DNA of 64,000 nucleotides from the human T2T-CHM13v2.0 reference genome, Homo sapiens. The translations under genes were made by a program, and so were the position numbers. The notes under the pieces are model-generated. The model worked only from the letters and a program-made list of their open reading frames with translations. It was not told where the DNA came from and searched no databases. Below are positions 25,814-63,198 of the stretch, in pieces. Within the stretch, counting starts at the first letter, position 1; every line of letters begins with the position of its first letter. The DNA lies in assembly GCF_009914755.1 (NCBI RefSeq), contig NC_060946.1; one strand, given 5' to 3'.

Positions 25814-28800
25814 GCAGATTGGCTTTTTAGTCTCTTCCTAAGTTCTTTCACAAAGCGAAGTTTTTAATTTAGATTTGATCCAGTTTACCAGTTTTCCTTT
25901 TATGTCTTATACCTTTGGTATAAAATGTAATAACTCTTTGCTACACCTAAGAGGCTTGAATTTTCTTTATGATTTTTTTCTAAAATGTTTCATAAAAAGT
26001 GTTATAATTTTATATTACATTCAAGTTCATAAGCATTTTGAGTTAATTTCTGTAGTGTGAGGTTTATGTTAAGGCTTTTTTTCTTTAGCCTATTGATGTT
26101 CACTTGCCCTAGCACCATTTGTTGAAAGGCTATTTTTCCTCCACTGATTTGTGTTTGCCAGCTTTGTGATGTATCAATTGGTAATAGCCATACCAGTGTG
26201 GCTCTATTTCTAGGCCTTCCCTTTGGATCCATTTTTATATGAATCTATCCCTATGCCAATACCACACTGTCATGATTACTTTAGCTGTGTGTAAGTCCTT
26301 GAAATACTGATGGATTCCTCCCACTCTATATTTCTTTTTCAAAATTGTCTTAGCTATCCAAGGATGTAAGTTTGCTTTGTCTGCAAAAATTCTTGCTGAG
26401 ATTTTTATAGGAATTGCATCAAATATATAGACCAAGCTAGGGAAAACTAACACAACATATTCAGTCTTCCCATCCATGAACATAGTGTATCTCCCTTTAT
26501 TTCTGCTTTGATTTCTTTCACCAGTGTTTTATATGTTTCAGCATACAGATCCCATATCTGTTTTGTTTTGTTTTAATGTACAACAAAGCATTTCATGTTC
26601 TTTGGAGCAGTTGTAGATGGTACTGTTGCTAAATTGGGGTACTGCTGACCTGTGGCATGGGGAAATAGCAGATTGCTGACTAGTTTAGGTTCACTTCAAC
26701 TGTTCAGTGCCTAGGAGGTTGGGTGGTGGTAGATGCTTAACTCCCCCACTGGAGCCTGGTGACCGGATAACACAGGATAGTGGGGAGGGCAGGTAAGAAG
26801 CACAGTGCAATGAACCCTACTTAGATCTGGCTCTTTAAAAACTGTTGTCGTTGGGTTGACCTGGATGCTCAGCTTGCTACTGGACTCTGCTGACACTGGC
26901 TAGGGAACTGGACTGTTGCCCTCTGTTCATGCCAAGTGGGTAATAAAAGATTAGATGCCTACTCTGCCTTTAGAGGGAATCAGAGCATCACTGATCTGGG
27001 AGAAGCTTGTCTCTCTACATGGCTCCACAGAAACCGCTGTAGTAGTTTTTTCTGTGGTGTTTGTCTGGAATAGCTTGGTTGTCTGGAATAGCTTGGTTAT
27101 TCCCGTAGAAGGGTTTTGAGTTGTTGTGTGTGGTTAGGTCATCCTCTCCTGTTCCTTTGGCTGGGAGAGAACAGGATTTCCTTGAAGTCTGTGCCTAATG
27201 GAGATTCTGTATTGGAAGCTTCTATAGTCCATCACCTGGGATACACTGAAGGCAAGAAGAAAATCCAGCAAATTTACCATAATATCACTGTTCAATTCCT
27301 AAAGACCCTAGACAAGCTGTCTTCCTCTTTGTACCTTTCAGAGTCTGTCTTTGTTTCTTGTTGTTATGTCTGTGGTGTTTTAGCTGTTACAAGGAAACAC
27401 TGGGGTACTGCATTGTAACTGGAAGTCCTAGGAAGGCGTTTAAAGTACCATGCAAACCAAATCCCATAAAGCAAAATGTGGGAAGATATGATTACAGAGA
27501 ATAAAATGATATATCTACAGTGAAGTGATTTTATAAAATAAAGTCTTCACTAAAATTAAAAAATCTCAAAGAAGTCTTTATAATATATGTGAAAAAGCCA
27601 ATGATTTTTAGCACATAAATAATATAGGTCAGTGAAGACCCGATGAAATACCTGCCATACACTTGGGAGAAAAAGAGTGTCAGCACTGCTTCCAGAAAAT
27701 ATAACCAAAAATGTGTTCTTTTTCAACTGCAGTAGAGATATAGTAATAACACCTTTCTCACAGGTTTTATTTGTTAAGTAACACATGATTTAATAGAAAC
27801 CAAGCACTCATTTCTAGGTCTCTGTTGCAAAGTGAACAATTGCAAAAGCAACTCTTATGAAAGCCAGAGATTACGAAAGAAAATTCTTTTTTAAAAAATC
27901 AAACTGGGTATCAAGAAAGAAAACAGCTCTGAGGTTTGGACTCCAATACTATTAATTTGAGATTAAACTTGGCAGTTCATTGAAATAGTTAATTGAGAAG
28001 TAAATTTGGATATATTCCCAAGAAAGAGACCATTTCTGTGTCCAATGGGGCTGGGCTCCCTGCCTAAATAATTGGTGAAAGAAAGTGTTGTTCAGACATT
28101 TAGCTGAAATACTTGTGTCAATTGGAAAGTCATTGCCCATGGATACTAGGATCTAACACAGAAAGAAGTTTTCATTCAAAGCCATGAGAAGAAAGATTCA
28201 TATCACAACCTCTGACCTGTGTGATATTCAAGACTGAGGTTAGATTTTTCATATTACCTGTATTATATAACTACCTGAAAAGCAGAAACTGGTATAACAT
28301 ACTAGATTGAACAATTAAGTTCTTAAAAACCTGGAAAGATTAACATAAAACTGCCCCCACCCAAGAATAAATTTACATTTAAGAACTTAAGATTGCTTTA
28401 CCACCTCAAAGGCAACATTACTAATTCATGGATGGACATTCCATGCCCTAAGAGATAGCCAAGGAAGACACACTTAAGGGTCACACTCAAGGATAAAAAG
28501 TGGAGTCAAAAAAAGTCATCATAATTAGTAGTTTAGGGGTTCTCTGAGACCAATAAATGGGATCTAAAGGCAAAACAGGTGGGTAGGAGGACAAAAATAC
28601 ATTTTTTAAATAGACAATTATACGTCATTGAAAAATGAACCATATACTAAAGGAACTCAATTTTTGCTTGTTTGTTTCTTATATAGTAGATTCAGCACAA
28701 ATATAGAAAGAACGAGTAATTTCCTAAGTAGATCTGAAAGTAAGTTTGCCAGGTGTAGGGGGAAAATTCAAGAATTTAAATATCATATGTCAATTTGAAA

Positions 28801-30004
28801 TTTGATAATTTGTTGACAAAAAACAAAGAATTTATTTTGAGTATAAACCTGTCCCATGCAATATTTAGAATAGTGCTAAATTACTAGAATATTGAAAATT
28901 ATATTAAAGGCTATTTGTTGCTTATTTAAAATGATAATGTCACTGGTAATCCTGTATTATATCTGGTGACCATACATAAAAGAGAAGTTAGGAAAGATGA
29001 ACTCGACACTTTTATATATTCATAAGAAACACTAGAAGACAAAAATGTATAAAAAGGGTAACATGCAAATTATGAAAATAATCTCTACCCAGGATATTAT
29101 TCCACATAAATTATCATTTAATAACATTTAATAACATTTTTCAACTCACGAAGATTATGCCAATATTAAAGACTTATGAAAAGGCCATGGAAAACAAGTA
29201 TAAAAGTTTTTTTTTTTAGCAAACAGAAAAATAAATCTCAAAATGAAAGAGGTATGCAAGAATTTTTTCTAAGAGGGCTAGAAATATGTTTTAGCTTGTT
29301 TAAAAAAAGTCAACTAACTGGGTCCTTCTGATTAACTACAGAAAGTAGAGAAATATGGTGATTAATGTCAAAAGCAGGAAAAGAAATAAATATGAGTAAG
29401 AAAAGTAAATCAATAAAATTAGAAAAACAGGTGGCAGGTGGGGAGACAGAGAGAAAAACAAAAGCAGATAGACAGGAGGCAAAGGCAGAAACAAAAAAAT
29501 CTAGGGTAAATAAAAAACTGTCTAAGCAGGTATAAGTTATGTAGATAAAAGAGTAACCATATTAGATGTAAACTGTTTAAACTTATGTTTAAACATTAGA
29601 TTGGTAAAAATTTTCTTCTGCCTAGGAATAATCACACTGAAATATTGAAAATAAAGGTTTAGAGAAAACTAACAAGTATTTATCAAAAAAGTTAGGCCAC
29701 TCATATTATATTAGGCAAAAGAGAATTTTAGAAAAAATGCAAGGAATAAAGAGGGACAATTATAGATAACAGGTGACAGACAAAATATGAAATATCAAAA
29801 TATGAAAAAAATTTAAAGATAATATAATAGTCACAAATTTAAATGCCTCAGTATCATTGTCTCAATATATGCCTGAGGTAAATTTGATGGACATCCATTT
29901 ATGTAGACAAGTCCCAATTGTAGTGAGAGGTGTTTAATGTATCAGTCATCTAGACTGACGAGTATACAGACATTATTTAGTGGTTAATTAAAATACTTTG
30001 CAAT
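25814..30004. repeat. Right arm of the ~4.1-kb inverted duplication
   Basis: Reverse complement of 8387-12522 along its whole length. Confidence 0.93.
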
Positions 30005-30210
30005 GTTTGTGTACTAACTTTTCATCAGCCATTTAATGTGAAGCTAACTAGTATAGCATGCTTTAATGATTTGACAGCTCTGCTAGGAGAGCAAGTATTA
30101 ACACAGAGTAGCCCTCATCCTCTTTAAAGTCAAGTCCATCTAATATAACTAGCACCTCGCTTTGCCTTCTCATATGCTCACTAGCCATCATGCTTACCCT
30201 TCCCTTCAAG

Positions 30211-31540
30211 ATCCACTTTCTCATGATACAGTTTTCTAACTGGGCTTACTTGGATGCTAGCAAAATGCAGGCTTACCAGGATATCAAAGCAAAGAAAGAA
30301 CAGGAACTGCAAGATATCCAGTCTCAGTACAAATAATAACTTAATTTTTACACACAAATATTTGCCACAGTGTTTCAGCCAATGCATTTACAGCTCTGAC
30401 ACATCATCAGACAACTGCTCTGCAGTACAGATGCCTATCCCACCAAACTAACGTAGACGTTCAAACACCTCGCTTTATGTCTCAAGCTGCTGGGCTTTTT
30501 CTTTAGAGCAAATACTGGCAGTTTCATGTTAGTCATTTTAAAAGGCAACACTTTGACAAAATAATTGTTCATACCTTGGAAATTTGTGGAAGGTTCATAT
30601 TTATTGCTAGAGGATTTCTACCAAGACACTCTATGGAATATGTTATACTCCTTGAATAGGTACCTGTGACATGCCAGCATCAAAAGATGAGACCATAAAT
30701 TCACATATATGCCATCTATCCTAAAATAAGTATTATCTACATAGAAAATAAAATGAAATTGGTGTGAAGTTCCAATTCTGACAGCTGACATTTGTTAAAC
30801 TTTGGCTCAAAGATAATGTGATTCTCATACTGACTTTACAAATTATCTTTTCTTCCCAAGTCCAGGGCCAATTAACTTCCTGAGCCAGTAAGAAAATATT
30901 TTTCAATAATGCTAATATTAGCTACAATTCTGCTGACTCGACTACTAAAGAACTCGATTATGACTCATTGACAAGCTTTCCAGAAACAATTTTATAATCT
31001 ATTACTAAAGAATCTGGATTCTGACTCATTGAAAAATCTTCCAAGTGCAATTTTATAATAGGTCTTATTTCAACAAAATACTGATCCAGTTTTCATTATC
31101 CTTCGGAAATACACGTCAGCTCTGTCTTAAGGAGTATTTGTTTTAAATTTCTAAGAATTTATATTATAACCAGAGACCCAAATATCTTTCACAGAATTTT
31201 GTCCATAAATGTTTTTCTTAATTAAGAAGTGTTACCTTATTAAAATGAGCACCATTTTAAACCATTTTTCAGTGGTCTGGGTAAACAGTTTCATACCAAC
31301 TCTCTAAAACCTAATTTCAAACTGACCACAGACTTCTAATCTTTTATTTTTATAGATTTGAAGACATAATTTAAATTAGGGTTGGTATTTCTTTTTGTCT
31401 TATCTAAATCTTAGTTTCCTGGAATAATAAAGTTTGATGTTCAGCAAGAAAACTGCTTGACTTCAAGCCATTTTCAAAAGAAACTTTACTTCTTCATTAT
31501 TGTGTTCCAGACATTAAGTGACTATAGGTACTGGGTATTA
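30211..31540 (+). pseudogene. GPM6BP3: GPM6B pseudogene fragment: terminal coding exon plus 3' UTR, preceded by intron-like sequence
   Basis: After tcccttcaag| the frame reads IHFLMIQFSNWAYLDASKMQAYQDIKAKKEQELQDIQSQYK**LNFYT, matching the GPM6B C-terminus (...QDIKAKEEQELQDIQSRSKEQLNSYT). Premature TAA at 30334. Symbol assigned from recalled locus context; 3' boundary approximate. Confidence 0.85.
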
Positions 31541-32187
31541 GTGTTGATCTTTCAGAGTGTATCTAACTTAGATTTAACAACAAATTGGTAAAGGCTGTTA
31601 TGGTTCATTTTTCTATATTTAGAAATAACTCTGGAATCACAACTCCAATTGAAGGGCTAAAACTTAAGCTGAATACATGCAGAGACAGTTTTTGTGATCT
31701 ACATGCCTAAGCTCTTTATGAACTGTCTCCATCTCAGTCACCTTTACCAACATGGGCCTAAAGAAATTAGGATGCTATGTTTGCATTTTCTTTGAATAAA
31801 ATTTCAATATCTCAGTTTCTCTAGACTTCAGCTTCTTCACTTCATGCAAAACAGAAATAACATGATATGACCAAATGTTATCGCTGGGCTATTATGAGTG
31901 GCTTAAAATTATAAAAGTTTTACAGACAGACCAATAGGATAGACTAGAGAGTTGAGAAGTAGACCCCAAGAGATGACAAACACGTGACTTATATAGCCCT
32001 GTTCCCATGCTGTTAATTGGTATCATTCATCAATCACAGCATTCTTCTTCAAAGACAAGATACAGCCTCAGAAATCCTTCTCAGCACAGCACTCCAGGAA
32101 GCCACTACCAACAGAACAAAGGTGGCATCATAGATAAATCCTATCTAGCCTTAACTGTCCTGGTACATATAAAAACTGTATAGGAGT

Positions 32188-32500
<313 letters not shown>

Positions 32501-32785
32501 ACAACTGGATAGGAGAAATCAAAGGATTATTTAATGATGCTACAATAATTTGTTTAACTATTTGGGATATGTTCCTAAAATCAAGAAATACTTCTATGCT
32601 TACAGCACCTCCCACTCTAACATCTAGCAAATCTATTAGACAAACAAAAAAAGCAAGATCAGTGTGGCAGACTGGGAACAGAAAACCCGTACTGAATGTG
32701 TATTCTTTTATAAATACAAACCATATTCTAATAATCTATTCTAATTTTCCCTAGGTAGCCAGACTAAGGTAGAAAGGTGTATCTG

Positions 32786-33105
32786 GGCCAGGCATGGCGG
32801 CTCACGCCTGTAATCCCAGCACTTTGGGAGGCTGAGATGGGCAGATCACGAGGTCAGGAGGTGGAGACCATCCTGCCTAACATGGTAAAAACCCCGTCTC
32901 TACTAAAAATACAAAAAAAACAAAAACAAAACAAAACAAAAAAAATCAGCCAGGCGTGGTGGCGGCACCTTACCAGCTACTCGGGAGGCTGAGGCAGGAG
33001 AATGGTGTGAACCCAGGAGGCGGAGCTTGCAGTGAGCCGAGATCGCGCCACTGCGCTCCAGCCTGGGTGACAGTGCGAGACTCCAGCTCAAAAAAAAAAA
33101 AAAAA
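32786..33105 (+). mobile_element. AluY-like with expanded middle A-rich region
   Basis: TSD aaaggtgtatctg on both sides. Confidence 0.95.
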
Positions 33106-34052
33106 AAGGTGTATCTGAAGAGTTATGCCAACAGGACACCCCAATTCTCAGAGTTCCACATATAAATATATTGCCTAATCTACCTTCTTTTACCCTAGAG
33201 GCTTAATCCCTCCATCTTCTAGACTCTGATGAGTTGCCAGCTGTAATTCAGAGGGACCATCACCAACATCTTACAGACAGAGTCCTTGTTCTCACTGCCT
33301 GACAAAAAGAGCAGGCAAAATCCATAAGAAGCATGTGGAACCTCAAATTGCAAGTATGAATGTATTTTCAACATTAAATATGGTATTAAGTAATAAAAGC
33401 AACTCTTGGGGGGAAAAACTTGTTTCTAGACTCATCGCCTCAGTATAACCTTACAAAGAATAAAGATAAATGACATTTATTACTGTCATTGCAGATTACT
33501 ATTTACTAAGTATCCTACTTTAAATAAATAAACCAAAAGTCCTCTGCTTTTAATGTTTAGGTGTAGAAGAAAAATGAATTGTGTTACCACTGGAGAACAG
33601 GATTAGAATAGGAAGGGGTAGAGTTTGTAATAATAAGCATGTATTACTTTTCTTCCTGACATAGAAGGTTCCACTCCACTTCTACCTTCAATGAGCTTAT
33701 AAATCAATTTAAGAAATTAATAGAAAACCAAAGAAGTTATGGGTTGCATAGGATGCCTAAGTAGATTAGAAAAATGAATAAACTGTCACTTCAAAAACCA
33801 TTAGGAGGGCCACGACACAAACGGACGTGGGATTCTTTATACTGTGGCTAAAAAAATAGTTAATAGCTCTTAGTTCCATTCTTTTTCCTCCTAAAGTTCC
33901 TGAATGTGGAGACTAAATGCTGCTGCAGAAGTTAGGCTTCACACAGTTTGAAACTGATCACTTTTTACATGCATGTATAATCTCAGGGTTGTTATTACAC
34001 TTAACTGGTGATGACGAGAATACTGATAATAATGATGGCAAAGAAAAATAAG

Positions 34053-34388
<336 letters not shown>

Positions 34389-34560
34389 TTAAAACTTGTT
34401 CTACTTGACATTTTAATAGGATAACTTTCAGCTTTCCCTATAGAATGCAATAAGTTATGCTTATTCACTGCTACACAGAATTAGGTTGTTAAAGTCCTTT
34501 TCGGCATATAGCTATTTGAGTATAGCTGTGAAAATTAATGTAATATAATGTAAAAAATAA

Positions 34561-34924
<364 letters not shown>

Positions 34925-34937
34925 AAAACTGAAAAAA

Positions 34938-35198
<261 letters not shown>

Positions 35199-36035
35199 AC
35201 AGAACTGCTATGATCTGCACTAATTAGAAGACAGTATATTTATTATGTTGTTTACTTAAAAAGACAACAGTCTATGGTTTAGGAATTTCTAGTAAGATCA
35301 TATGTAATAGTTTTAATAATTAGTTTATAATTTAAATTGATATCACTAACAGAAACATATAGCATCATGATTCAAGGCATTATTTAATACTAAGCTATGA
35401 ATAAAGTATTTTGATGGAAAAATAATATCTCAAGCCAGCATCCCACAGAAATCACAAGGGACTACACAATTTCTAGATGATCAGGACACAGAAGAAGTGT
35501 CATAGAAATTTAGGCTTTTCCTTTTACTATGGTAAATTAAGAAACATGCTATTACTACTTGTTTGGATAAGAAAAATTGGAAGTTACTACTTGAATTTCA
35601 AATAATTTCCATGGCAGGGCTTTACCAGTAGAGTACTACTGAATAGTGGTGATGGAAAACAATAATCTGGAAGTAATAATTTGAGTCTCTGATGGAGCCC
35701 AAGAAGCAGAAGGCATAAAACACACAGAGGTTACACTTAGAAAGCACTTTATAGTTAAACAGATCATTTTTGCACATAGTGTCTCTTTGTTCCTTACAAA
35801 ATCCTTCATGGTTAAGATGGCTATTTATAAGGATCCTCATTTTACAAATGAAAAAACTAAGCCTGAAGCATTAAGAAACACAAATAGTGGCAGAACTGGA
35901 GCTTAAACCCAAGTCTTTTAGGTCCAATCTGCTTTATATTACTTTACTTTCCTCCTCTCTATTCATAAACTAATGTGAAAGAGAAAATGCAAACATTTTC
36001 CTAGACAAAGCGAAACATGTCCTCATATCTTACTT

Positions 36036-36172
36036 AAAAAAGAAGGAAAAGGAGTAGGAGGAAGAAGGAAGGAGAGAGAAGGGAGAAGGGGAAGAGGGGA
36101 GAAAAGCAAAGAGAGAGGAAAAAGGGGAAAGAGGAAAGAAGAGAAGAACATGGAGAAGGGAAGAGAAAGAAG
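36036..36172. repeat. GA-rich low-complexity tract
   Basis: Near-pure polypurine run. Confidence 0.85.
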
Positions 36173-36649
36173 TGGTTACTTCGAGACATTTCTCATTCCA
36201 AGAAACTGCCATGGGAAAGTCAATAAGCTTATAAACATCTGAACAAAACTTGAGAGGAACCCTAAACAATTTTGAAGAAATCTAATGGAAGAGTTCTGAA
36301 AGTTTGCCTACCAAAACAATCCTGACGAGAGAGACAAAAACTGCATATATTAGAGCTGATGCTAGTTGCCATCAGGCAACATGATGTGTCTGTCAATTCT
36401 ATTCTCTTGTAACAACCAATAACCCTGCATTGTTATAACACACAATATTTACTATATTCATCTGCCCCATAGAAAACTTGTCCTGTTCAATGAATGAACA
36501 AAAAGTCAAACAGTGAGGAATTTCAAGAGAAAGCTACTATATTAAAAATATTCTCAACTTGAAATCAATATTATAAAGTCTCATAAATGTCTCCAAATTC
36601 ATGAAAAAGAAAAAGCTAGAAAGTCAGCTTCAAATAAAGACCCTGCACA

Positions 36650-36780
36650 AAGCCTCCCATTCACAATTGTTACAAAGAGAATAAAATACCTAGGAATACA
36701 GCTAATGAGGGGTGTGAAGAACCTCTTCAAATAGAACTACAAGCCACCGCTCAAGGGAATAAGAGAGGACACAAACAAAG
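36650..36780 (+). mobile_element. Short primate L1 ORF2 fragment
   Basis: cccattcacaattg...aataaaatacctaggaatacagcta...agagaggacacaaacaaa. Confidence 0.85.
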
Positions 36781-37827
36781 GAGAAGGCCAGGGCATTGAC
36801 CATGATCACCACGAAAGGTGTGGTGCCTGGTGGCTCTGCTGAGAGCATGCTCTCTGTGTGCCAGTGACCTCTGTAGGCAGAGGGAGGAGGGCTTGCCCTG
36901 GCACCAAGATCATTAAATGCACCATCACAGGCATGACAGGGTGAATCGTGTCATCTCATGGGAAGCATACCTCAGTTCCCCTCACTCTTCTGAGGACAGA
37001 TACTGGGTCCATCCCTGGACCTGAGTTGCTCAGCAGTGGGGCTGAGATGAGCTCTGGAACCTAGCCCAGCCCTGCATTCATCCCCCAGACCGCTCGGCCA
37101 GCCACAACCCCATGTACCAGAAGCAGCATCTGTTCAACAGCAACCTCCACTGGGACTCCAGGGCCTTCCGCAGACTCAGCCACCTGGTGCGAGAGACTCA
37201 CCTCAACTTCTCAAGGTAACACAGCTGAGCTCCCTGGAGTTTGGGAGGTGGGAGGGAAAGGGGTGAGGTTCCTCCGTGCAACTCACAGCCTCTCCCTCGA
37301 CGGGCCAATAGGAGAACACAGGAGACTGCAGACCATGCAGGTGACCAGGCCAGAGCCCAGGGGCAGGAGAGGCCTCCTGTTTACGGGGCAGAGGGGAGCT
37401 TGGCAGGCGGGGCCTCCTGGTGCCCAGCAGGGGTCATGGCAGCTTCCCTGGACCACGTTGTTCCATATGCGGGGAGACATTGAGAGTTGGCTTGGTGTGA
37501 GTAGCCCACTGCAGGTGAACCTTCACATTCTGACTCCTGATCTCTGCTCCTCAGGTTTGCCCACCAGTTCCTAGATCCAGGCACATACATGTTTCAAGAC
37601 AATGGGCAGCCAGAGAGCCTGGCCGTGGTGCTGGTGAAGGAGGAGGGGGTGGCCTGTAGTCCTGGCCTGTGCCCTGTGCAGCCCTCATCCCCTATCAGCT
37701 GGGCAGGCAAAGCATCCTCAGGCACAGGCTGCCAAACCTGGGCCCAGACTGGGCAGTGATCACAGGTACTGATTGACAGGACATAGCAGCCAGGACTTGA
37801 GCAGGCAGGGAGGAGTGCCATGCCACA

Positions 37828-37899
37828 GGGCCCTGAGTGTCTGTCAGCCCTGTCCGAGTTCCTGGGCCCCTAGTGTGTGTCAGCCCTGTCCGAGGCTCT
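37828..37899. repeat. 36-bp tandem duplication
   Basis: gggccctgagtgtctgtcagccctgtccgagttcct / gggcccctagtgtgtgtcagccctgtccgaggctct. Confidence 0.85.
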
Positions 37900-38268
37900 G
37901 GGCGTAGCCACCAAACTCCAGATATGATGACAGTGACAGTGGCATGGTGCAGCTTGTCCTTGACCTGGGACTTCATTTGCAGGCAAAAATTTTCTCCATT
38001 TGGGGCCTCCTTTCTCACCTCCCCTTCCCCACTTCTCATGCTCATTTTTCCTGGAAGCTGCCCCAGTGGACAGGGTTCCTGAGTGGAGTCACAGGATCAC
38101 AGACATCCTAGACTAGCCCCCAGTGTGGGTTTCCCATCTTCCTTCCTTCTTTTCTCCAGAGGTCAGCAATCCGCACTGAGCTCTTCAGGCTGGGGCCTGC
38201 CCAGTGGGCAGAGAGGACACAGCCCTCTGATGGCTAAGACTCAGCCCTGGGCACAGGGCAGCAGCTCT

Positions 38269-38274
<6 letters not shown>

Positions 38275-38312
<38 letters not shown>

Positions 38313-38345
38313 TGCATGCATACATGCATGCATGCACACATACAT
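38275..38345. repeat. (CA)n / (CATG)n microsatellite
   Basis: Read directly from the sequence. Confidence 0.95.
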
Positions 38346-39111
38346 TCAGAGCACAGGTCACATGTGGGGCTGTCCCAGGAGGGTCCTCACACAGAAGGGC
38401 ACAGGGTAGTGGGGAGGGCCTCCCAGAGGGAGACTAATGGCCCAGAGACAGGAAAGGAGCTGTGAAGAGTTCAACCGCAAGGGCAGCAGGGCAGAGGCCA
38501 GGGCCACTGAGGCAAATGCAAAACAGCGGTTCTCACGTTCCCAGGCAGCCTGGAGGGGCTCTGAGTGGCCACCATGTAGCCCCATTCCCCTCTCCCGCCC
38601 ACCTTCCAGGGGTGCTGCTGGCTGTTGGCTTGGCAACTGTGCTGTTGATGGGCCTGGGCCTCCTGCTGAGTCCCTCCCTGCCCCACGCCTGCCCCATGCA
38701 GGCTTGGAAGACTCGGTGGAGAAGGCTAGGACAGCCTCAGGTGCCTGCTGAGTATGTGATCCTCAGAGACAGGTGAGTTCCCCCTGCCCTCCACACACCA
38801 GGCCCAGCCCTGGCCAGCCCGGGGACTGCTGTGGCAGGTCTGGCCACTCCCCAGGAGCCCGGGCACTGGCCAAGCTCCCCCTGTCCCTGTGGACTTGGGA
38901 CAGATGACCTTTAGAGTTAACCTGTGATGTGGGCTCCACCTGGGGTTCAGCACTGCCGCTCATGTCTAGGCACTGAGGTTGGTTCTTCCTTTCAGCCTCC
39001 CGTTCTATGAAGACCTTGGCCCTTGGGGATCTGGGGAAGGAGCTGACTCCAAGAAGGCCATGAGCCGGGGCACAGGTACCATGCTGGTGTGCAGCCAACC
39101 CCTCCTCAACA

Positions 39112-41520
39112 ATACTTGTTATTTTCCCTTTACTAGATAGTAGGTATCCTACTGGGGACGTATACACTGATATCTTTTTGTAGTTTTGATTTGCATTCTT
39201 CACTAATGATTAGTCATATTGAGCATTATTGAGCATCTTTTTATGTGCTTATTGGCCATTTGTATATCTTCTTTTGAGAAATATCTATTGAAGTTCTTTG
39301 TCCAGTTTTGAATTAAGTTGTTTGGTTTTTGTGGTTGTTGTTGTTGACTTTCAAGAGTTCTCTATTTATCACATACATGATTTGACAATATTTTCTGTGG
39401 TTCTGTGGGTTGCCTTTTTACTCTGTTTATAGTGGTTTTTGATGCACGAAATGTTTTTTAAGTCATGAAATTCAGTTTGCATATTTTTTCTTTTATTGCC
39501 TGTGCCTTTGGTATTGAATTCAAAAATTCGTTGCCAAATCCAATACTGTGATGTTTTTGTCCTGTGTTTTCTTCTAAGAATGTTATTGTTTTAGGTCATA
39601 CATTTAGGTCTTTGATCCATTTTAGTTAATTTTTTTGTATGGTGTTAGGAAAGAATCCAACTTCATTCTTTCGCATGTGGATATCTAGTTCTCTCAGCAC
39701 AATTTATTGAAAAGACTGTCCTTCTTCCCCCTGAAGGGTCTTGGGTTCCTTGTCAAAAGTGATTTGACTGTATCTGGAACAGATTATTTCTGGACTCTCA
39801 ATCCTTTTACCAGTTATAGGTCTATTCAGATTTTCTATTTCTTCATGATTTAGTCATGGTGGGTTTCGTGTTTCCAGGAACTTGTCCATTTCATCTAGGT
39901 TGTCTTAATTCGTTGGCATACAATTGTTCATAGTACTCTTATAGTCCTATTTTATTTTTGTAGACTTGTCCGCATTTTCACTTCTGATTTTAGTAATTTG
40001 AATCTCCTTCTTTTTTTCTTAGTTCATCTAGCTAAAAATATGTCAATTTTGTTCATCTCTCCCAAGAAACAACTTTTGATTTTCTCTATTTTTTTCTATT
40101 TTTTGTGTTTATCTCTGCTCTAATCTTTGTTATTTCCTTCCTTCTGCTAGCTTTGAGTTAAGTTTGTTCCTCTTTTTCTAGTTGCTTAAGTTGTAAAGTT
40201 AGGTTGTTCATAGAGAGATTTTTTTGTTTTTTGATACAAATATTTATAGGTACACATTTTACCCCTTGGGTTGGTAGGTGGTGCTTTTTTATGTTCATTC
40301 ATCTCATTATTTTCTAATTTCCCCTATGATTGCTTCTTTGATCCATTGGTTGTTTAAAAATGTGTTGTTTAATTTCCAAAAGTTCTTGGATTTTTTTAGT
40401 TTTTCTTCAATTACTAATTTCTAGCTTCATCCCACTGTGGTTAAAGAAGATACTTTTTATGATATCCATCTTTTTAAATTTATTGAGACTTAATTTGTGG
40501 CCTAACATATGCTCTATCCTGGAAAACATCCCATAAGCACTTTAGAAAAATATGCATGCTGTTTTTGTTGGGTAATGTTTTCTATATGTCTGTTAGATCT
40601 AGCTGGTTTATCGTGTGTTTAAGTCCCCTATTTCCTTACTTATATGCTGTCTGGTTGTTCTATTATTAAGAAGTGGGTATATATACACCATGGAATACCA
40701 TGCAGTCATAAAAAAGAATGAATTCATGTCCTTTGCAGGGACATGGATGAAGCTGGAAGCCATCATTCTCAGCAAACTAACACAGGCACAGAAGACCAAA
40801 CACCACATGTTTTCACTTAAAAGTGGGAATTGAACAATGAGAACACATGGACACAGGGAGGGGAACATCACACACCAGGGCCCGTTAGGGGGTGGGGGGA
40901 CAAGGGGAGGAAGAGCATTAGGACAAATACCTAATGCCTGCGGGGCTTAAAACCTAGATGATGAGTTGATAGGTGAAGCAAACCACCGTGGCACATGTAT
41001 ACCTATGTAACAAGCCTGCACATTCTACACATGTATCCCAGAAATTAAAGTAAAATTAAATACATAAATAAATAAGTGGATATTGCAGTCTCCAACCATT
41101 ATTGTAGAACTATTTCTCCCTTCAATTCTGACAGTTTTTACGTTGCATATTTTAGTGGTCTGTCATTCAGTGTGTCATGCATATCTTGACATATCAAGCA
41201 TATCCTTGCTGCATTGAACCTTTTATTAGTATTAATATATAGTGTACTTCTTTGTCTCTTGTAAACTTTTTTTATTTAAAGTTTATTTTGTGTGATACTA
41301 ATATAACTATCCCTGCTCTCTTTTGGTTACTCTTTTCATGGAATATCTTTGTCTGTTCACTTTCAATCTAGTTGTGTCTTTGAATGTAAAGTGAGACTTT
41401 GTAGATAGCAAATCTACAAAGCTGATCATGTGTTTCTATGATCATGTGTTGGATCATGTGTTTTTATCCATTCTGCCAATCTCTGTTTTTTTATTGGAGA
41501 CTTCAATCCATTTATGTAGA
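39112..41520 (-). mobile_element. Old L1 (L1M) fragments, interrupted by a younger L1PA 3' end
   Basis: Typical antisense L1 text (gttttgatttgcatt, ttggccatttgtatatcttc, tttatctctgctctaatcttt). Confidence 0.85.
40681..41068 (+). mobile_element. 5'-truncated L1PA (L1PA7/8-like) 3' end
   Basis: ORF2 C-terminus YTMEY...KHHMFSL; 3' UTR; degenerate A tail; candidate TSD aagtgggtat / aagtggatat. Confidence 0.92.
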
Positions 41521-42261
41521 ATCTTCTAATTCCTCTCTCTCTCTCTCTCTCTCTCTCCCCTACATTGAATTTGCTGACTTTTGTGCTGCTGTTGAGATAA
41601 AATGCACTGCTGATGCATGGTATTGCTAATCCAAAACTACTTGGGTATTTTGTTTTTCTTATACAATTCAGCCAGTTCTAGCTAAAATGCAAAAATTGAA
41701 AATTTAACCCTAAACTCATTTGAAACTGAAGGTGAAAAAAATATATGAAAAGAGTTTTGTGGGTTTTTTTAAATCAAATTGCCATGGAAACTGCTTTTTT
41801 CAAAACTTTGTTTCATAGCCTTCATTACATTACCCTCTGGGGCAAATGAAATTTAGCCATCTGAACAGGTTCCAGTTTTGTCAGGAATACAATTTGAATC
41901 CAGCCATCTTTGGTAAACCAGTGAGTTTATATTACCATCTCATGACAAAATTATAGAATGAAAGCTATAAGATATTTATGTGTGTGTATGTGTTTAGATG
42001 TGTTTATGTAGGTGTACATGTATTTTTCATGTTTTGTCTATATGGTATCAAATTGACTTATAAATAAACATGCATACATTAGGAAGTACAAATATTTTCC
42101 AAGTTCACATGACTTAAATCTTTAATAAGTAAGCTGGTTTTAGAATTATTAATAAAATATACATAGAAATGTCTTCAGAAATGTCAGCACACATTTTTGC
42201 CTGCATTTACTGATCTAAAAGTCTTATAGTTGTTTCTGCTAGATATTTTAAAGTGTCAGGG

Positions 42262-42648
<387 letters not shown>

Positions 42649-44203
42649 TTAATGTTGTTTTCACGAAAACAGACCTATCTTATGAGTTAGAGGCAAAATA
42701 CCCATATATGTAACTTTCAGGTTCTTATTTAAATGAACATTTGATATTCATAGGCTATAAAAGTTGTTAACAACAAAATAACTTGAAATACTTATCAGCT
42801 TTGTCTAATATCTCAGTTTGCGTAAGTAATCTTGTTATACTGTTAAAAGTAAGTAAATTAGGCAAATGTAAATAAAAAATGCTTATAAATAAACCTTTTA
42901 TGTAATTTGAAATCTTAAACTTATGATAAATTAAATAATAGAAACTCATTAAGTGTCATTTTCAATTAAGAAAATATTGTAAGAAAACGTTTAAAAAATG
43001 ATGAAATGGCTCTTTTCTATAAAATACTGATATGTGGCAGACAAGTCAAGATCTTGCTTACTAAGTTTACACCAAAATTTAAGGTTACTAAGAGTTAAAA
43101 TTTCTAACTAACATATAATTTTGTATATAAAGTATGCCAAAAAATAAGTTGTATTTTTGATAAGAAAAAATACAAGAAAGGCATGAAATGTGTTCTTATT
43201 GAGAAAAGAAAATTTTGTCTAATTCAGAGGTTATTTAAAGGTTATTTATGAAATAAGACAGAAAGAAACAAGTAATTGGAAGAGAAAGTGAAAGAAGTTA
43301 TGGATATGGAAATGTACTTTTTTGTAAAAAAACAAAAAGAGGTTAAAAAGAAAAGAGAATAATTTTGTATAAGAAAGAATCTTGTATAGTAAATTTTTTC
43401 CTACAGTGAAATGACTGGGTATTTAAGAAAAAGGAAATATAAGAAAGAGCAAAAAGTCCCAGGATGTCTTAAGTAGTCTGTGTAAGTCACAATAAGATAT
43501 TTGAAAAGACATTTATTAAAGGAAGTTTGTATGTGATTAAGTTTGCTGTAACACAAATATTTATCTTTCTAAATATGGAGTTTTGATATTAAAAATACAC
43601 TAATGCAAAACTAAAAATTGGTCCCCTATGTTAGAATAAGATTTCATGAAAGTATTTATTTGTTATTAATAAAATTACAAGAGGTTTTATCTGTTTCTTT
43701 TTGAAATTTCTCAAATTTATGTCCCAGAAGTTCAAATTCTGCTCTATCTCACTAAATGTGATTTGCAGTTTATATGTCATTGCCTTCTGTTCTTTATTCC
43801 CTTAAAAGGTAAATCTTTTTGCTTACCTGGGATGATAACTCTCTTCTTCAATCTTTTTATTAACTCCCGTAACTATTTTCTTCCACTCTACCTCTGATGT
43901 TGTGGCTGGACACTAAAATGCTTATCTTGAAGGTCTAGAATAGCAGTGTTTTCCTCTAGAATAATTTGATTCTGTACTCTTGGCTTTTCTTCAATAGAGG
44001 GGAATTCTCATGCTGTTACTGACAGCCATGTGTTTCTGTGCTCAAGGTATGAGTTTTCCTGTTTACATTCCTTTATACAATCGTGTACACATATAATCAT
44101 GGACACACTGTTCTTACATCTGATTAAGGTCCACTACCCTTTTTATCAGGCTTGACTTCCAGGCTATCTAAATGGGCTTCCCATAAGGAGAATTAGTCAT
44201 ACT

Positions 44204-44621
44204 TGTGTTGCTCCATTTTGCATTGCTATAAAGAAATACCTGAGACTGGGTAAATTATAAAGACATTTATTTTGGCTCACAGTTCTGCAGACTGTACAAG
44301 AAGAACAGTGCCAGCATCTGATTCTGGTGAGGGCCTCAGGAAGATTACAATTACATTTATGGTGGAAGGTGAATGAGGAGCAGGCATGTCACATGGCAAG
44401 AGAGGGAGCAAGAGAGAGGAGGAGGTGCCAAGCTCCTTTAAACAACCAGCTCTTGCATAAACTACCAGAGCAAGAACTCACTCATTGCCATGGGGATGGC
44501 AATGAGTCATTCATAAAGTATCTGCCTCTATGGCCCAAACACCTCCCACTAGGCCATCTCCAACACTGAAGGTAACATTTCAACATGAGATTTGGAGGGG
44601 ACACACATCCAAACTAAATTA
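44204..44621. mobile_element. MaLR solo LTR (MSTA/MSTB-like)
   Basis: gcattgctataaagaaatacctgagactgggtaa...caacatgagatttggaggggacacacatccaaac. Confidence 0.9.
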
Positions 44622-45376
44622 ACACTATAGGAGGTTTTGTGGGGATTTTTGTTTATTTGTTTGTTTACCTTTATAGTAGCTGGTCTAAAAAGCAAAGATT
44701 TTATGTTTTATTAAAACAATTTCTGCATTATTCTTATTAGGTTTCATATTACTTAGGAAAACTGAAATTTAAAAGGGTTAAGGATTTTACATTCATAAAA
44801 ATTTCTGTATTTCTTTCAAAGTATTTTGATTACCACTCTACGTATATGAATAACTTTTATTTTCCAGTGACCTATGGTTTTATTTTGATCTAGTTTTTTG
44901 AAACTTTTGACGTCTTTGTCATGTTCCCCCAGGATGAAAATCGTAAATTAAGTCTTTTTGTATTAAATAATTAAACTTATTTGGTAGATTCTTTGTAAAG
45001 TATTATCAAATGATAATTGATATTAGATCTTTCTGTTACAATTATGGGTACATTATTGACATAAATGTTCCAAAACTTATATAAATTTACAAAAAGCTAA
45101 TTTGTTATCAGTCATAATTTTGATTACTATGTTAAATCTTAAGTTATATTTGTATGGGTATGTTATTCATGTGAATATTCTAAAGACGATATAACATTTA
45201 TGAAAGCCTGATGTCTCTAACATGACACTGTCATAATGATTCTGGTTGTTATCTTAAAATGCTGCAAATAATAGAAATAACAAAATTTCCTTGTCTATCG
45301 GGAACTTTCATCAAATCTTAGCCATAGCTACACCGAATTTTGGTCATCCAGTGTTATTATTCTCAATTCTTCTCTA

Positions 45377-45739
<363 letters not shown>

Positions 45740-45974
45740 TTATGAAAAAGATTCTAATAAGTACGGGCACAAAAGGAGGAAAAAGCTAATACAATTAATG
45801 AAAGAATATACAAATGTATGTTCTAGTTTTTTTGAATATTTATCATGGTTTTTCGCCAATGTGTCACTCCTTTGATGATATTATGTGTAAAACTTGTAGT
45901 ATTCTTGTAATAGTCTTCTTGAAGTGTTGTGATAGGTGAAGAAAACTGCAATGTCAGAAAAAAAAAACTGAATC

Positions 45975-48373
45975 ATACTAATTAGAAAAATAGATGAGTG
46001 AGGCAGAAAACTAACAAGGAAATGCTGACTTAAATTCAACACTTCACCAATTGGACCTAATAAAAATTGACAAAATGTTCCACCCAACAACCACATAAGA
46101 TACATTCTTTTCATTTGCACATGGCATATACTCTAAGATCAACCACATATTTGGCCATAAAGCAAGTCTCAATAACTTTTTTTAATGAAGAAACAACACC
46201 AAGCATATTTTTGGGCCACGAAGAATAAAAATAGAAGGCAATATCAAGAAGATACTTCAAAATCACACAATAAAATGGAAAACTAAAGAACTTGTTTCTT
46301 AATAACTTTTGAGTTAACAAAATTAAAGCAGAAATCAAATAATTATTTAAAGTAAATGAAAACAGAGACACAATTTACCAAAATCTCTGGAATGTAGAAA
46401 AAGCAATATTAAGAAGAAAGTTTATAGTGCTTAAATGGTTTGCCTACCTCAAAAAGCTAGAAAGATACCAAATTATCAATCTAACATCACACCTAAAGGA
46501 CCTAAAAAAACAAGAACAAACTAATACAAAGCTACCAGAATAAAATAAATAACAAAAATCACAGCAGAAATAAAATTGAGACCCAAAAAGCCATATAAAA
46601 GATTAATGAAATTGAAAGTTGGTTCTTTCAAAGAATACGTGAGATTGATAGAATGCTAGGTAAACTAACAAAGAAAGAAGATTCAAATAAATACAATCAG
46701 AACTGATACCCACGGTAATACAAAAGAGCCTCAGAGACCATTATGAACACCTCTGTGCACACAAACTAGAAATCTAGAGGAAATGAATAAATTCCTAGAA
46801 ACACAAAACCTTCCAAGGAAGAATTAGGAAGAAATTGAGATCCTGAACAGACCAATAGCAAGTTTGAAAAATATAAACCAGTAATAAAAAACCTACTAAC
46901 CAAGAAATGTCCTAGACCAATTAGTTCACAGCCAAATTCTGCCAGACGTGCAAAGAAGAGCTGGTGCCAATCCCACTGAAACATTCCCCAAAAAATGAGG
47001 AGAAGGAACTCCTCCCTAACTCATTCTATAAAACCAGCATCATCCTGATACCAAAATCTGACACAAGCACAACAAAAAAAGGAAACTACAGGCCAATATT
47101 CCTGATGAACAGACACAAAAATCCTCAACAAAATACTAGCAAACTGAATCCAGCGACACATCAAAAAGTTAATTCACCATGATTGAATAGGCTTTATTCA
47201 TGGGAGGCAAGGTTGGTTCAACATATGCAAATAAATAAATGTGATTCAACAAATAAACAAAATTTACAAAAAACACAAACACAAGTAAAAACTTCATGAT
47301 CATCAATAGATGCAGAAAAAGTTTTAAATGAAACCCAACATCTCCTCATGATAAAAAACCCTCAACAAATTAGACATCAAAGGAGTATACCTCAAAATAA
47401 TGAGTTATCTATGACAAATTCACAGCCAAGCTCATACTGAACTGGCAAAAGCTGGATTCATTCCCCTTAAGAATCAGAACAAGACAAGGTTGCCCATTCT
47501 CACTATTCTGGCTCAACATAGTACTGGTAGTCATAGCATAGCAGTTATGCAAGAGAAAGAAAAAGAGGAAATTCAAATAGGAAAAGAATAAGTCAAATTA
47601 TCTCTCTTCATAGATGATATTACTCAATACCTAGAAAAACTTAAAAGACTACCAAAAATTCCAACAACTAATACATAACTTCAGTAAAATTTCAGAATAT
47701 ATAATCAATGTACAAAAGTCAGTAGCAGTTGTATACACCAAAAACGTCCAAGCTGAGAGCCAAATCAAGAATGCTATCCCATTTATAATGACCACACAAA
47801 AAAAATACCTAGGAATATATCTAACCAAGGAGGTGAAAGAACTCCACAAGAATAACAAAAATTTCTGCTGAATAAAATCACAGATGACACAAACAAATGG
47901 AAAAACATTCCATGTTCGTGGATGGGAAGAATGAGTATCATTAAAATGGCCATACCACCCAAAGCAATCTCTAGATTTAACACTATTCCTATTAAATTAC
48001 CAATGTTGTTTTTCACAGAATTAGGAAAAAAACTACTCTAAAATCCATATGGAATGAAAAAATGAGCAGGAATCACCAAAGCAATCCTAAGCCAAAAAAA
48101 AAAAAAAGAAAAAGAAAAAAGAAGCCAGAGACATCACACTATCCAACTTTAAACTATATTGCAAGGCTACATAACCAAAACACTACAGTACTGGTACAAA
48201 AACAGATACATAGACCAGTGGGACAGAATAGAGAACCTAGAAATAAAGTCACACACCTACAACCAAGTGAACATCCATGAAGCTGACAAAAATAAGCAAT
48301 AGGGAAAGAACTCTCTATTCAATAAATAGTGCTGGGATAACTGCCTATCCATAGGCAGAATGAAACTGGCTAC
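45975..48373 (+). mobile_element. L1 ORF2 fragment (L1PB/L1MA-like), truncated at both ends
   Basis: [15 protein letters not shown] and NYRPI motifs; stops at agaatgaaactgg. Confidence 0.92.
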
Positions 48374-59640: not shown

Positions 59641-60101
59641 ATTTCCCGGTTGAGAAGAGAAGGGTGGCCAGTAGCCAGGCTAGTGATAGAATTAATTAAA
59701 TATGCTACCGAATTGATTAATTCCTACAGTGTTAAAAGAGAAGCACTAACAACGCCAGTGACCATGTAACACGGATTTAAGCTACAAGTCATAGAACTGT
59801 GATGAGAAGCCTCAGCGCTGTAAAACAGAGGGTGGAGGAAAGCTTTTCCTCTCTCAAATGAGCTTTGCCGGGTATACTTCTTGAAGAATAGGAAGTTGAA
59901 GTGTTCAGGACTTTTATGTCTATTCTACTTTGGCTTAGTTTACATAATTCTTAGTTTATTAGCCTAGAAATGGCCAAGAAAACTTAAGGCTCAATAATTA
60001 GTTATAAATATGAAATATCCCCAATTTTTAAGATAAAAACAACTTATAAATGTATTTGTCTGTAAAAATTGTCTATATTTTTACAGAACATCTATTTCTT
60101 T

Positions 60102-60866
60102 CTTTTTTAAATTTTTATATATTTTTTTTTTATTATACTTTAAGTTCTAGGGTACACATGCACAATGTGCAGGTTTGTTGCATATGTATACATGTGCCAT
60201 GTTGGTGTTCTGCACCCATTAACTCATCATTCATATTAGGCATATCTCCTAATGCTATCGCTCCCCCCTCCCCCCACCCCACAACTGGCCCCGGTGTGTG
60301 ATGTTCCTCTTCCTGAGTCCAAGTGTTCTCATTGTTCAATTCCCACCTACGAGTGAGAACATGTGGTGTTTGGTTTTTTGTCCTTGCGGTAGTTTGCTGA
60401 GAATGATGGTTTCCAGCTTCATCCATGTCCCTACAAAGGACATGAACTCATCATTTTTTATGGATGCATAGTATTCCATGGTGTATATGTGCCACATTTT
60501 CTTCATCCAGTCTATCATTTTTGGACATTTGGGTTGGTTCCAAGTCTTTGCTATTGTGAATAGTGCCACAATAAACATACGTGTGCATGTGTCTTTATAG
60601 CAGCATGATTTATAGTCCTTTGGGTATATACCCAGTAGTGGGATGGCTGGGTCAAATGGTATTTCTAGTTCTAGATCCCTGAGGAATCGCCACACTGACT
60701 TCCACAATGGTTGAACTAGTTTACAGTCCCACCAACAGTGTGAAAGTGTTCCTATTTCTCCACATCCTCTCCAGCACCTGTTGTTTCCTGACTTTTTAAT
60801 GATCGCCATTCTAACTGGTGTGAGATGGTATCTCATTGTGGTTTTGATTTGCATTTCTCTGATGGG
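60102..60866 (-). mobile_element. 5'-truncated young L1PA (L1PA3-5-like)
   Basis: Open ORF2 C-terminus [31 protein letters not shown]...; TSD tctatttcttt (60091-60101, 60867-60877) at an endonuclease-type site. Confidence 0.97.

Positions 60867-62847: not shown

Positions 62848-63198
<351 letters not shown>

What the first reader, a model, noticed from the sequence alone, without database searches (positions are those of the whole stretch)
37089..39075. Hidden four-exon remnant of a transmembrane-protein gene, one base from an open spliced frame
Seen: four + strand exons (127, 211, 163 and 80 nt) with canonical AG/GT sites and compatible phases. The spliced translation is [87 protein letters not shown][fs]YQLGRQSILRHRLPNLGPDWAVITG/VLLAVGLATVLLMGLGLLLSPSLPHACPMQAWKTRWRRLGQPQVPAEYVILRDS/LPFYEDLGPWGSGEGADSKKAMSRGT. 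Exon 2 is exactly 1 nt short of phase (C-run near 37691) and there are no in-frame stops otherwise. The ORF track shows only exon 3 in frame. Recalled knowledge: the motifs resemble the uncharacterised large cysteine-rich membrane protein of mouse Gm9195 / zebrafish si:ch211-286b4.4. Inference: a duplicated piece of a gene lost relatively recently in the human lineage, probably unannotated here.
Basis: partly seen in the sequence, partly recalled or inferred. Interest (0 to 1): 0.85.

Follow-up and report, generated by a model that had tools for sequence, protein, structure and literature searches.

The report
Orphan four-exon membrane-protein gene relic
A 2.3-kb GC-rich island near the chromosome 22 centromere holds four still-recognisable exons of a single-pass membrane-protein gene with no other copy found in this human genome, so it is most likely a dead, unannotated gene fragment of unknown parent.

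Summary
Four + strand segments (127, 211, 163, 80 nt) have AG/GT borders, compatible phases and no stop, with one frame change inside exon 2. It is not chance. That compares with a maximum of 72.1 in 120 shuffles, 60.6 in 20 real non-coding GC-rich windows and 54.0 on the minus strand. Exon 3 encodes a clear membrane helix.

The exons sit in the window's only sizeable GC-rich island (about 60% GC against 38%). It lies in a 6.9-kb stretch without a paralogue, between two chromosome-2-derived duplicons, and abuts an internally cut LINE piece on the left. No second copy was found in CHM13 by DNA or by any of the 5 exon peptides. RefSeq annotates nothing there. CpG in the exons has decayed to the intron level, as in a pseudogene.

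The parent gene could not be identified. All protein searches were blank, but they were length-limited, so the Gm9195 link is untested. An alternative donor after 37655 gives an open frame with no frameshift, so 'one base from open' is not the only reading.

Verdict: a real, ordinary kind of object (an unprocessed gene fragment) with an unusual orphan status.

The parts
36654..36786 (+). Internal fragment of a LINE-1-type element (sense orientation), cut on the side facing the gene block. It is preceded by 35 unassigned bases (36619-36653) that follow the end of the chromosome 2p22-derived duplicon at 36618.
   Evidence: All 39 other scored places (of 1501 candidates) were 89-95% identical over this stretch. 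One such copy (L003) carries an RVT_1 reverse-transcriptase ORF just upstream on the same strand. The duplicon end was seen base by base. The name LINE-1 is my reading.
36787..37088 (+). GC-rich intron remnant upstream of exon 1, ending in the acceptor site.
   Evidence: GC rises from 35-47% to 50-62% per 100 nt here. The acceptor scores 8.73 bits, the 48th percentile of 305 real sites, and 2.3% of 16,723 decoy AGs reach it.
37089..37215 (+). Exon 1 (127 nt, 41 full codons), the most coding-like piece. It contains an N-x-S sequon.
   Evidence: Codon log-odds are 0.376 per codon and GC3 is 0.88. None of 1841 decoy open frames reached this. The donor scores 6.18 bits, the 25th percentile of real sites. 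Translation.
37555..37765 (+). Exon 2 (211 nt). The first 45 codons are coding-like. The frame must change somewhere in 37660-37756, or the exon ends at an alternative donor after 37655 (101 nt, no frameshift).
   Evidence: Exon 2a scores 0.118 per codon (0.2% of decoys reach it). Exon 2b scores -0.455 (82% of decoys reach it). The acceptor is at the 59th percentile and the donor at the 3rd.
38274..38312 (.). (CA)n-type microsatellite inside intron 2.
   Evidence: Read directly from the sequence.
38610..38772 (+). Exon 3 (163 nt). It encodes a membrane helix (38612-38668) followed by a basic cluster. It has the best splice sites of the four.
   Evidence: The 19-residue Kyte-Doolittle mean is 2.65 at residues 1-19. 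The acceptor scores 11.24 bits (81st percentile) and the donor 12.97 bits (99th percentile; 0.01% of 10,306 decoy GTs reach it). Codon log-odds are -0.06 (3% of decoys reach it).
38996..39086 (+). It would encode the proximal cytoplasmic tail. There is no stop codon, so the gene continued beyond it.
Evidence: The chain search chose 39086. Codon log-odds are -0.09 (4.6% of decoys reach it).
39106..40670 (-). Old, degraded interspersed repeat (LINE-like, antisense) that starts about 20-35 nt after exon 4, with no T-run at the junction.
   Evidence: GC falls from 60% to 28-36% at 39100. Other genomic places match at 69-78%. Pfam gave no significant hit on its short ORFs, so the LINE label and the end coordinate are my reading of the translation.

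Best explanation
The block at about 36787-39105 is a genomic, intron-containing fragment of a protein-coding gene. It holds four consecutive internal exons. They would encode the last part of an ectodomain, one membrane helix and the start of a cytoplasmic tail of a single-pass (probably type I) membrane protein.

The block has no start codon, no stop codon and no promoter of its own. It sits in a 6.9-kb stretch without a paralogue (36619-43503), wedged between two duplicons copied from chromosome 2 in the pericentromeric mosaic of 22q11.1. It is most likely inert: a pseudogene fragment evolving neutrally.

Shown here: the exon chain is real, the membrane helix is present, there is no other copy in the open parts of CHM13, the left border is a rearrangement junction, and CpG has decayed to intron level.

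Inferred: the fragment was either pasted here from a GC-rich locus that the human lineage later lost, or it is what remains in place of a gene broken up by the duplicon insertions. I lean towards pasting. In either case the gene it came from is no longer present in this genome. The identity of that gene is unknown.
For: Exon chain:
- 0 of 120 shuffles reached it (mean 48.5, sd 7.0, max 72.1).
- 0 of 20 real non-coding GC-rich 2320-nt windows reached it (max 60.6).
- The minus strand scores 54.0.
- All 4 acceptors lie at the 41st-81st percentile of 305 real acceptors, and one donor at the 99th.
- Exon 1 and exon 2a have codon usage that 0 and 0.2% of 1841 decoy open frames reach.

Membrane helix: Kyte-Doolittle mean 2.65 over 19 residues, followed by a basic cluster.

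Pseudogene state:
- The score is below all 54 real four-exon windows (90.6-206).
- CpG observed/expected is 0.167 in the exons and 0.154 in the introns. None of 76 groups of four real exons is that low (median 0.53, minimum 0.27).
- There is no start or stop codon.

Orphan status:
- DNA search of 36733-39223 found only itself across the block.
- 5 of 5 exon peptides gave only the self match at a significant E-value.

Setting:
- It is the only sizeable GC-rich island in the 64 kb (about 2.4 kb; three other stretches of 400-600 nt pass 52% GC).
- Flanking duplicons are 94% (chr2:36.90 Mb) and 96% (chr2:110.4/110.8 Mb) identical to their chromosome 2 counterparts.
- The chr2 duplicon ends sharply at 36618.
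- An internally cut LINE fragment touches the block.
- RefSeq has no gene there.
Against: - No homologue in any species was found, so there is no direct proof that these exons ever belonged to a working gene. Pfam was blank for the 5 pieces, apart from one sub-threshold hit (BcsF, E 0.12, 12.8 bits against a 23-bit cut-off). PDB was blank for 3 pieces. The word search was blank 3 of 3 times. These were single-exon queries, and the word search is length-limited.
- Two of four donors are weak (3rd percentile; 19% of decoys are as good).
- Exon 2b is non-coding-like, and exons 3 and 4 are only marginal in codon usage.
- The models were trained on the same chr22 exons used as the positive control.
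- Matches in closed regions of the reference are not shown, so a parent could be hidden there.
- Whether the fragment was pasted or remains in place is not settled.
Confidence: 0.72

Rival explanations
1. These are live but unannotated exons. They are spliced into a transcript, for example a testis mosaic transcript starting upstream on the + strand such as a read-through from HSFY1P1, and may even be translated using the alternative exon 2 donor that keeps the frame open.
For: All eight splice dinucleotides are intact, and the four acceptors are of normal strength. With the donor after 37655 the four exons are open with no frameshift. HSFY1P1, a transcribed pseudogene, lies upstream on the same strand.
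Against: RefSeq has no transcript, CAGE cluster or other feature here. The block has no start or stop codon. Exon CpG has decayed to intron level, unlike 76 of 76 groups of real exons. The chain score is below all 54 real four-exon windows. Both flanks are repeats and foreign duplicons. No expression data could be consulted.
Confidence: 0.1
3. It is a chance look-alike. GC-rich DNA has long open frames, and AG/GT pairs are frequent, so a four-segment chain that is allowed one frameshift can arise without any gene.
For: Two donors are weak and exon 2b looks non-coding. No homologue was found.
Against: With the same loose rules, 0 of 120 shuffles, 0 of 20 real non-coding GC-rich windows and the block's own minus strand came near the score. 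Exon 1's codon usage was reached by 0 of 1841 decoy open frames. The strong membrane helix falls exactly between the two best splice sites.
Confidence: 0.05

Closest known systems
Unprocessed (duplicated) pseudogene fragments of the 22q11.1 pericentromeric mosaic, such as the annotated neighbours GPM6BP3, ANKRD62P1-PARP4P3 and IL9RP6
   Same: It is a genomic piece of a gene with introns kept, and it lacks the gene's ends. It lies among duplicons copied from other chromosomes.
   Different: Those fragments have a recognisable parent elsewhere in the genome. For example, the GPM6B-related stretch matches chrX and chrY at 79-87%. This block has none, and it is not annotated.
Unitary pseudogenes (relics of genes lost without a functional counterpart; Zhang et al. 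2010, PMC2864566, of which I saw the abstract start in the search listing and a term search only)
   Same: There is no functional or broken counterpart in the same genome. It shows signs of former coding and of neutral decay.
   Different: A unitary pseudogene is defined by a working orthologue at the syntenic place in other species, which could not be tested here. This relic is only four internal exons and may not lie at the ancestral locus.
Mouse Gm9195 / zebrafish si:ch211-286b4.4
   Same: Nothing was shown here.
   Different: It was not testable with the tools at hand. The two papers with passages naming these genes only list them in expression or chromatin tables. The piece holds 3 cysteines in 189 residues, although a tail piece need not be cysteine-rich.

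Membership tests
Unprocessed pseudogene fragment | Exon-intron structure of a protein-coding gene is retained | tested here: met
   The four-exon chain scores 86.2, against a null maximum of 72.1 (120 shuffles) and 60.6 (20 real non-coding windows). The acceptors are of normal strength.
Unprocessed pseudogene fragment | Cannot make the protein (truncation or disabling lesion) | tested here: met
   There is no start and no stop codon in the block. LINE and duplicon sequence begins about 300 nt before exon 1 and about 20-35 nt after exon 4. The frameshift itself is optional, given the donor after 37655.
Unprocessed pseudogene fragment | An identifiable parent gene | tested here: not met
   There is no second locus in CHM13 by DNA or by 5 of 5 exon peptides. 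Closed regions were not seen, and other species could not be searched.
Segmental duplication | A second copy of at least 1 kb at 90% identity or more | tested here: not met
   Only the self match covers 36787-39105. The stretch 39100-43520 also has no long paralogue. The neighbouring stretches do have paralogues.
Unitary pseudogene | No functional counterpart in the same genome | tested here: met
   within the open parts of the reference.
Unitary pseudogene | A functional orthologue at the syntenic position in other species | not testable with these tools
   No vertebrate genomes are on hand. The word search is limited to proteins of 0.55-1.75 times the query length, and it was blank 3 of 3 times.
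Gm9195 / si:ch211-286b4.4 family | Collinear protein similarity across the four exons with matching intron positions | not testable with these tools
   A long parent cannot be reached with single-exon queries. The papers give no sequence information.
Single-pass type I membrane protein (what the piece would encode) | One hydrophobic helix of about 20 residues, basic residues on the cytoplasmic side, and glycosylation or cysteine features on the other side | tested here: met
   The Kyte-Doolittle mean is 2.65 over residues 1-19 of exon 3, and no other piece exceeds 1.15. A K/R cluster follows the helix. An N-x-S sequon and 2 Cys lie before it. The topology itself is inferred.

The most novel reading that the evidence does not exclude
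The block is a 'ghost duplicon': the only trace left in the human genome of a vertebrate membrane-protein gene whose original locus was lost entirely from the human lineage. A 2.3-kb piece survives only because it was pasted into the chromosome 22 pericentromeric mosaic beforehand. It would then be a datable fossil of a complete gene loss that synteny-based screens cannot see.
Probability: 0.3. Interest if true: 0.55.

Novelty: new member of a known kind. Interest (0 to 1): 0.38.

Why it matters
Pericentromeric mosaics are known to collect gene fragments, so one more fragment is ordinary. The unusual point is that this one has no parent in a complete human assembly. If its relatives exist in other vertebrates, it marks a gene that humans lack, and it gives a handle for dating and describing that loss. 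It is also an unannotated stretch with four usable acceptor sites next to a transcribed pseudogene, which matters when interpreting testis transcripts from this part of the cat-eye-syndrome region. It changes no known mechanism.

Tried and rejected
Identifying the parent:
- Pfam on the five exon pieces gave nothing above noise.
- PDB sequence search with exons 1, 2a and 3 gave nothing significant.
- The protein word search was blank with exon 2a (45 aa), the 104-aa open frame around exon 3 and the 57-aa open frame around exon 1. 3, 59 and 2 candidates of sample-only or untold source were left out before scoring. These blanks say little, because only proteins of similar length are candidates.

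Literature:
- Searches for Gm9195 (2 papers), ch211-286b4.4 (1 paper), XKR3+ZNF402P (0 papers) and 'unitary pseudogene'+22q11.1 (2 cancer reviews, listing only) gave nothing on this locus.
- Term searches in three gene-loss papers for chr22, 22q11, 'chromosome 22', Gm9195 (in two of them), XKR3 (in one) and pericentromeric (in two) found 0 occurrences in the main texts. Their supplementary gene lists were closed and may bear on this.

Other readings considered:
- A structured RNA: Rfam found none.
- A gene on the minus strand: the chain score of 54.0 is within the null range.
- A transposable element or provirus origin for the block itself: it is single-copy.

Ideas from recall that no call supports:
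- A possible PKD/Ig-like beta-sandwich reading of exons 1-2a. Pfam gave no hit on the separate pieces.
- The tail, read across the exon 3/4 junction, holds two Y-x-x-L motifs six residues apart, an ITAM-like spacing by recalled consensus. Exon 1 holds an N-P-x-Y. I give these little weight.

Dating:
- Absence of stops only bounds neutral divergence loosely: P(no stop) is 0.54 at 3%, 0.16 at 10% and 0.04 at 20%.
- CpG decay suggests tens of millions of years, but the parent's CpG level is unknown.
- Pfam did not confirm the LINE label of the downstream flank.
Full report
**What is in the sequence.** Each follows a pyrimidine tract and AG, and each is followed by GT. Spliced, exons 1-2a read in one frame and exons 2b-4 in another. 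The frame change can lie anywhere between the TAG at 37657-37659 and the TGA at 37757-37759, so its placement at the C-run near 37691 is not determined by the sequence. RefSeq has no gene, transcript or functional element at 36-40 kb.

**Is it more than chance?**
- *Training.* I trained splice-site matrices and a codon log-odds table on 305 curated internal coding exons. Background came from 108,735 nt of non-exonic sequence. Both were taken from 20 GC-rich 10-kb tiles of chromosome 22 (61% GC, like the block).
- *Splice sites.* The four acceptors score 8.4-11.2 bits, the 41st-81st percentile of real acceptors. Only 0.6-2.8% of 16,723 decoy AGs do as well. The donors are mixed: 99th percentile for exon 3, 25th for exon 1, and 3rd for exons 2 and 4, where 19% of 10,306 decoy GTs do as well.
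- *Codon usage.* It is clearly coding-like in exon 1 (0.376 per codon, GC3 0.88; 0 of 1841 decoy open frames reach it) and in exon 2a (0.118; 0.2% reach it). It is marginal in exons 3 and 4 (3% and 4.6%) and non-coding-like in the 24 codons of exon 2b (-0.455).
- *Chain search.* A dynamic-programming search looked for the best chain of four phase-compatible open exons, allowing one frameshift. The score was 86.2.
- *Null values.* The same search gave 54.0 on the minus strand. It gave a mean of 48.5, sd 7.0 and maximum 72.1 in 120 dinucleotide shuffles. It gave a mean of 41.8 and maximum 60.6 in 20 real non-coding GC-rich windows of the same length.
- *Positive control.* 54 windows holding four real exons scored 90.6-206, with a mean of 139. 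These were evaluated on training data, so they are somewhat flattering.

The block therefore lies well above noise and just below intact genes, as a decayed gene piece would.

**A second reading of exon 2.** The search without frameshifts found a chain scoring 81.7 in which exon 2 ends at a GT after 37655 (101 nt) and joins exon 3 in phase. Exon 2b looks non-coding, and both candidate donors are weak. So 'one base from an open frame' and 'already open with a shorter exon 2' cannot be told apart here.

**What the piece would encode.** Exon 3 begins with 19 residues of mean hydropathy 2.65. No other piece exceeds 1.15. A cluster of K/R follows the helix. Before it lie an N-x-S sequon (exon 1) and two cysteines (exon 2a). 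This is the layout of a single-pass type I membrane protein: end of ectodomain, helix, start of tail. The topology is inferred. The tail, read across the exon 3/4 junction, has two Y-x-x-L motifs six residues apart, which by recalled consensus is an ITAM-like spacing. I give this little weight. Exon 4 ends at a donor without a stop, and exon 1 starts at an acceptor, so the gene went on in both directions.

**State of decay.** CpG observed/expected is 0.167 in the four exons and 0.154 in the three introns. In the training set, pooled exons have 0.54 and non-exonic sequence 0.30. None of 76 groups of four neighbouring real exons is as low as 0.167 (minimum 0.27). The exons have thus lost the CpG excess typical of constrained coding sequence. 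The absence of stops in 189 codons bounds neutral divergence only loosely: P = 0.54 at 3%, 0.16 at 10% and 0.04 at 20%.

**Setting.**
- The block is the only sizeable GC-rich island in the window: about 2.4 kb at 50-73% GC per 100 nt, against a window mean of 37.8%. Three other stretches of 400-600 nt also pass 52%. The block's edges are sharp, near 36790 and 39100.
- Its introns (59% GC) are as GC-rich as its exons (61%). The composition therefore belongs to the source locus, not to coding alone.
- The window is a mosaic:
  - 27083-31546 resembles chrY and chrX (GPM6B region) at 79-87%.
  - 31542-36618 matches chr2:36,901,535-36,906,560 at 94%.
  - 43504 onward matches chr2:110.44 and 110.78 Mb at 96%.
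  - 59680-64000 matches many pericentromeric places at 95-97%.
- The chr2p22-derived duplicon ends sharply at 36618.
- After 35 unassigned bases comes a 133-bp repeat fragment (36654-36786). It is 89-95% identical to all 39 other scored places, of 1501 candidates. One of those copies carries a reverse-transcriptase ORF just upstream on the same strand. The fragment is therefore an internal piece of a LINE-type element, cut at the side that touches the block. That makes the left border a rearrangement junction, not a normal insertion end.
- On the right, an old repeat (69-78% to other copies) begins about 20-35 nt after exon 4, with no T-run. I read it as an antisense LINE, but Pfam did not confirm this.
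- The whole stretch 36619-43503 has no long paralogue.

**Other copies and relatives.**
- The DNA of 36733-39223 matched only itself across the block. The other 39 scored matches (of 437 candidates) cover only the repeat ends.
- Each of the five exon peptides matched only its own place at a significant E-value. Exon 3 also drew 8 weak hits (E 0.66-6.2) of the kind hydrophobic segments give. Matches in closed regions are not shown.
- Outside the human genome I could not look properly. Pfam and PDB were blank. Three word searches were blank but see only proteins of about the query's length.
Two of the three papers that name these genes (read as passages) only list them in tables of chromatin or expression data. 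The third I saw only in the search listing.
- Three gene-loss papers do not mention chromosome 22 in their main texts.

**Most likely explanation.** This is an unprocessed fragment of a gene for a single-pass membrane protein, now inert, with no parent in this genome. Two histories fit.
- *Pasted.* The fragment was copied from a GC-rich locus into the growing pericentromeric mosaic, like its neighbours, and the source was later lost. In favour: the composition is foreign to the AT-rich surroundings, including the XKR3 part of the window. The cut LINE sits at the left border. There are only four internal exons. The neighbours are all imports.
- *In place.* The 6.9-kb stretch is native 22q11.1 sequence, and the gene was broken up by the imports. 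In favour: there is no source elsewhere, and an old repeat next to exon 4 could be an ancient intronic insertion.

I lean towards pasting, but the data do not decide. In either case the LINE fragment at the left junction is of a family still about 90-95% alike among its copies. That places the truncation within primate evolution. This step is an inference from recalled LINE ages.

**Comparison and verdict.** In kind this is a known object: a gene fragment in a pericentromeric duplication mosaic, like the annotated GPM6BP3 or IL9RP6 nearby. It differs in being unannotated and parentless. It meets the 'no counterpart in the genome' criterion of a unitary pseudogene. The defining orthologue test could not be run, and it fails the second-copy test of a segmental duplication. 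I rate it a new member of a known kind, of moderate interest. It becomes more interesting if cross-species comparison shows that it is the last trace of a gene otherwise deleted from the human lineage.

Noticed in passing
window 31542-36618: A 5.1-kb duplicon 93.6% identical to chr2:36,901,535-36,906,560 (+). Both ends are sharp. The right end is at 36618, where the chr2 sequence continues differently.
   Followed up: yes
window 43504-46999 and beyond: A duplicon 96% identical to two places on chromosome 2 (110.44 Mb on the - strand, 110.78 Mb on the + strand). It forms the right boundary of the stretch without a paralogue that holds the gene block.
   Followed up: partly
window 27000-31546: The stretch around GPM6BP3 matches several chrY places (19.5, 22.8-26.9 Mb) at 77-83% and chrX:13.35 Mb at 82-87%. 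It appears to be genomic sequence from a sex chromosome, not a processed copy.
   Followed up: no
window 27000-30005 versus window 8387-11339: An inverted, 78-81% identical paralogue of the GPM6BP3-flanking stretch lies inside the XKR3 gene body (chr22:17,492,387-17,495,339, - strand). Part of an XKR3 intron therefore shares the same sex-chromosome-related sequence.
   Followed up: no
window 59680-64000: A high-copy pericentromeric duplicon, 95-97% identical to at least 26 places on chromosomes 1, 2, 9, 10, 14, 15, 16 and 22. It lies on the side of the window facing the IGKV orphon pseudogenes annotated 43-63 kb beyond the window's end.
   Followed up: no
window 40676-41076: A roughly 390-bp interspersed repeat, 89-92% identical to 39 other scored places, sits inside the old repeat downstream of the block. 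Its family was not named.
   Followed up: no
window 36030-36175: A purine-rich (GA/GGA) low-complexity tract, masked in the reference, lies inside the chr2-derived duplicon.
   Followed up: no
window 38763-39203, - strand: A 146-aa open frame runs from the old repeat across exon 4 on the opposite strand. Pfam gave no hit, and the minus-strand chain score is at null level, so I take it for chance.
   Followed up: partly
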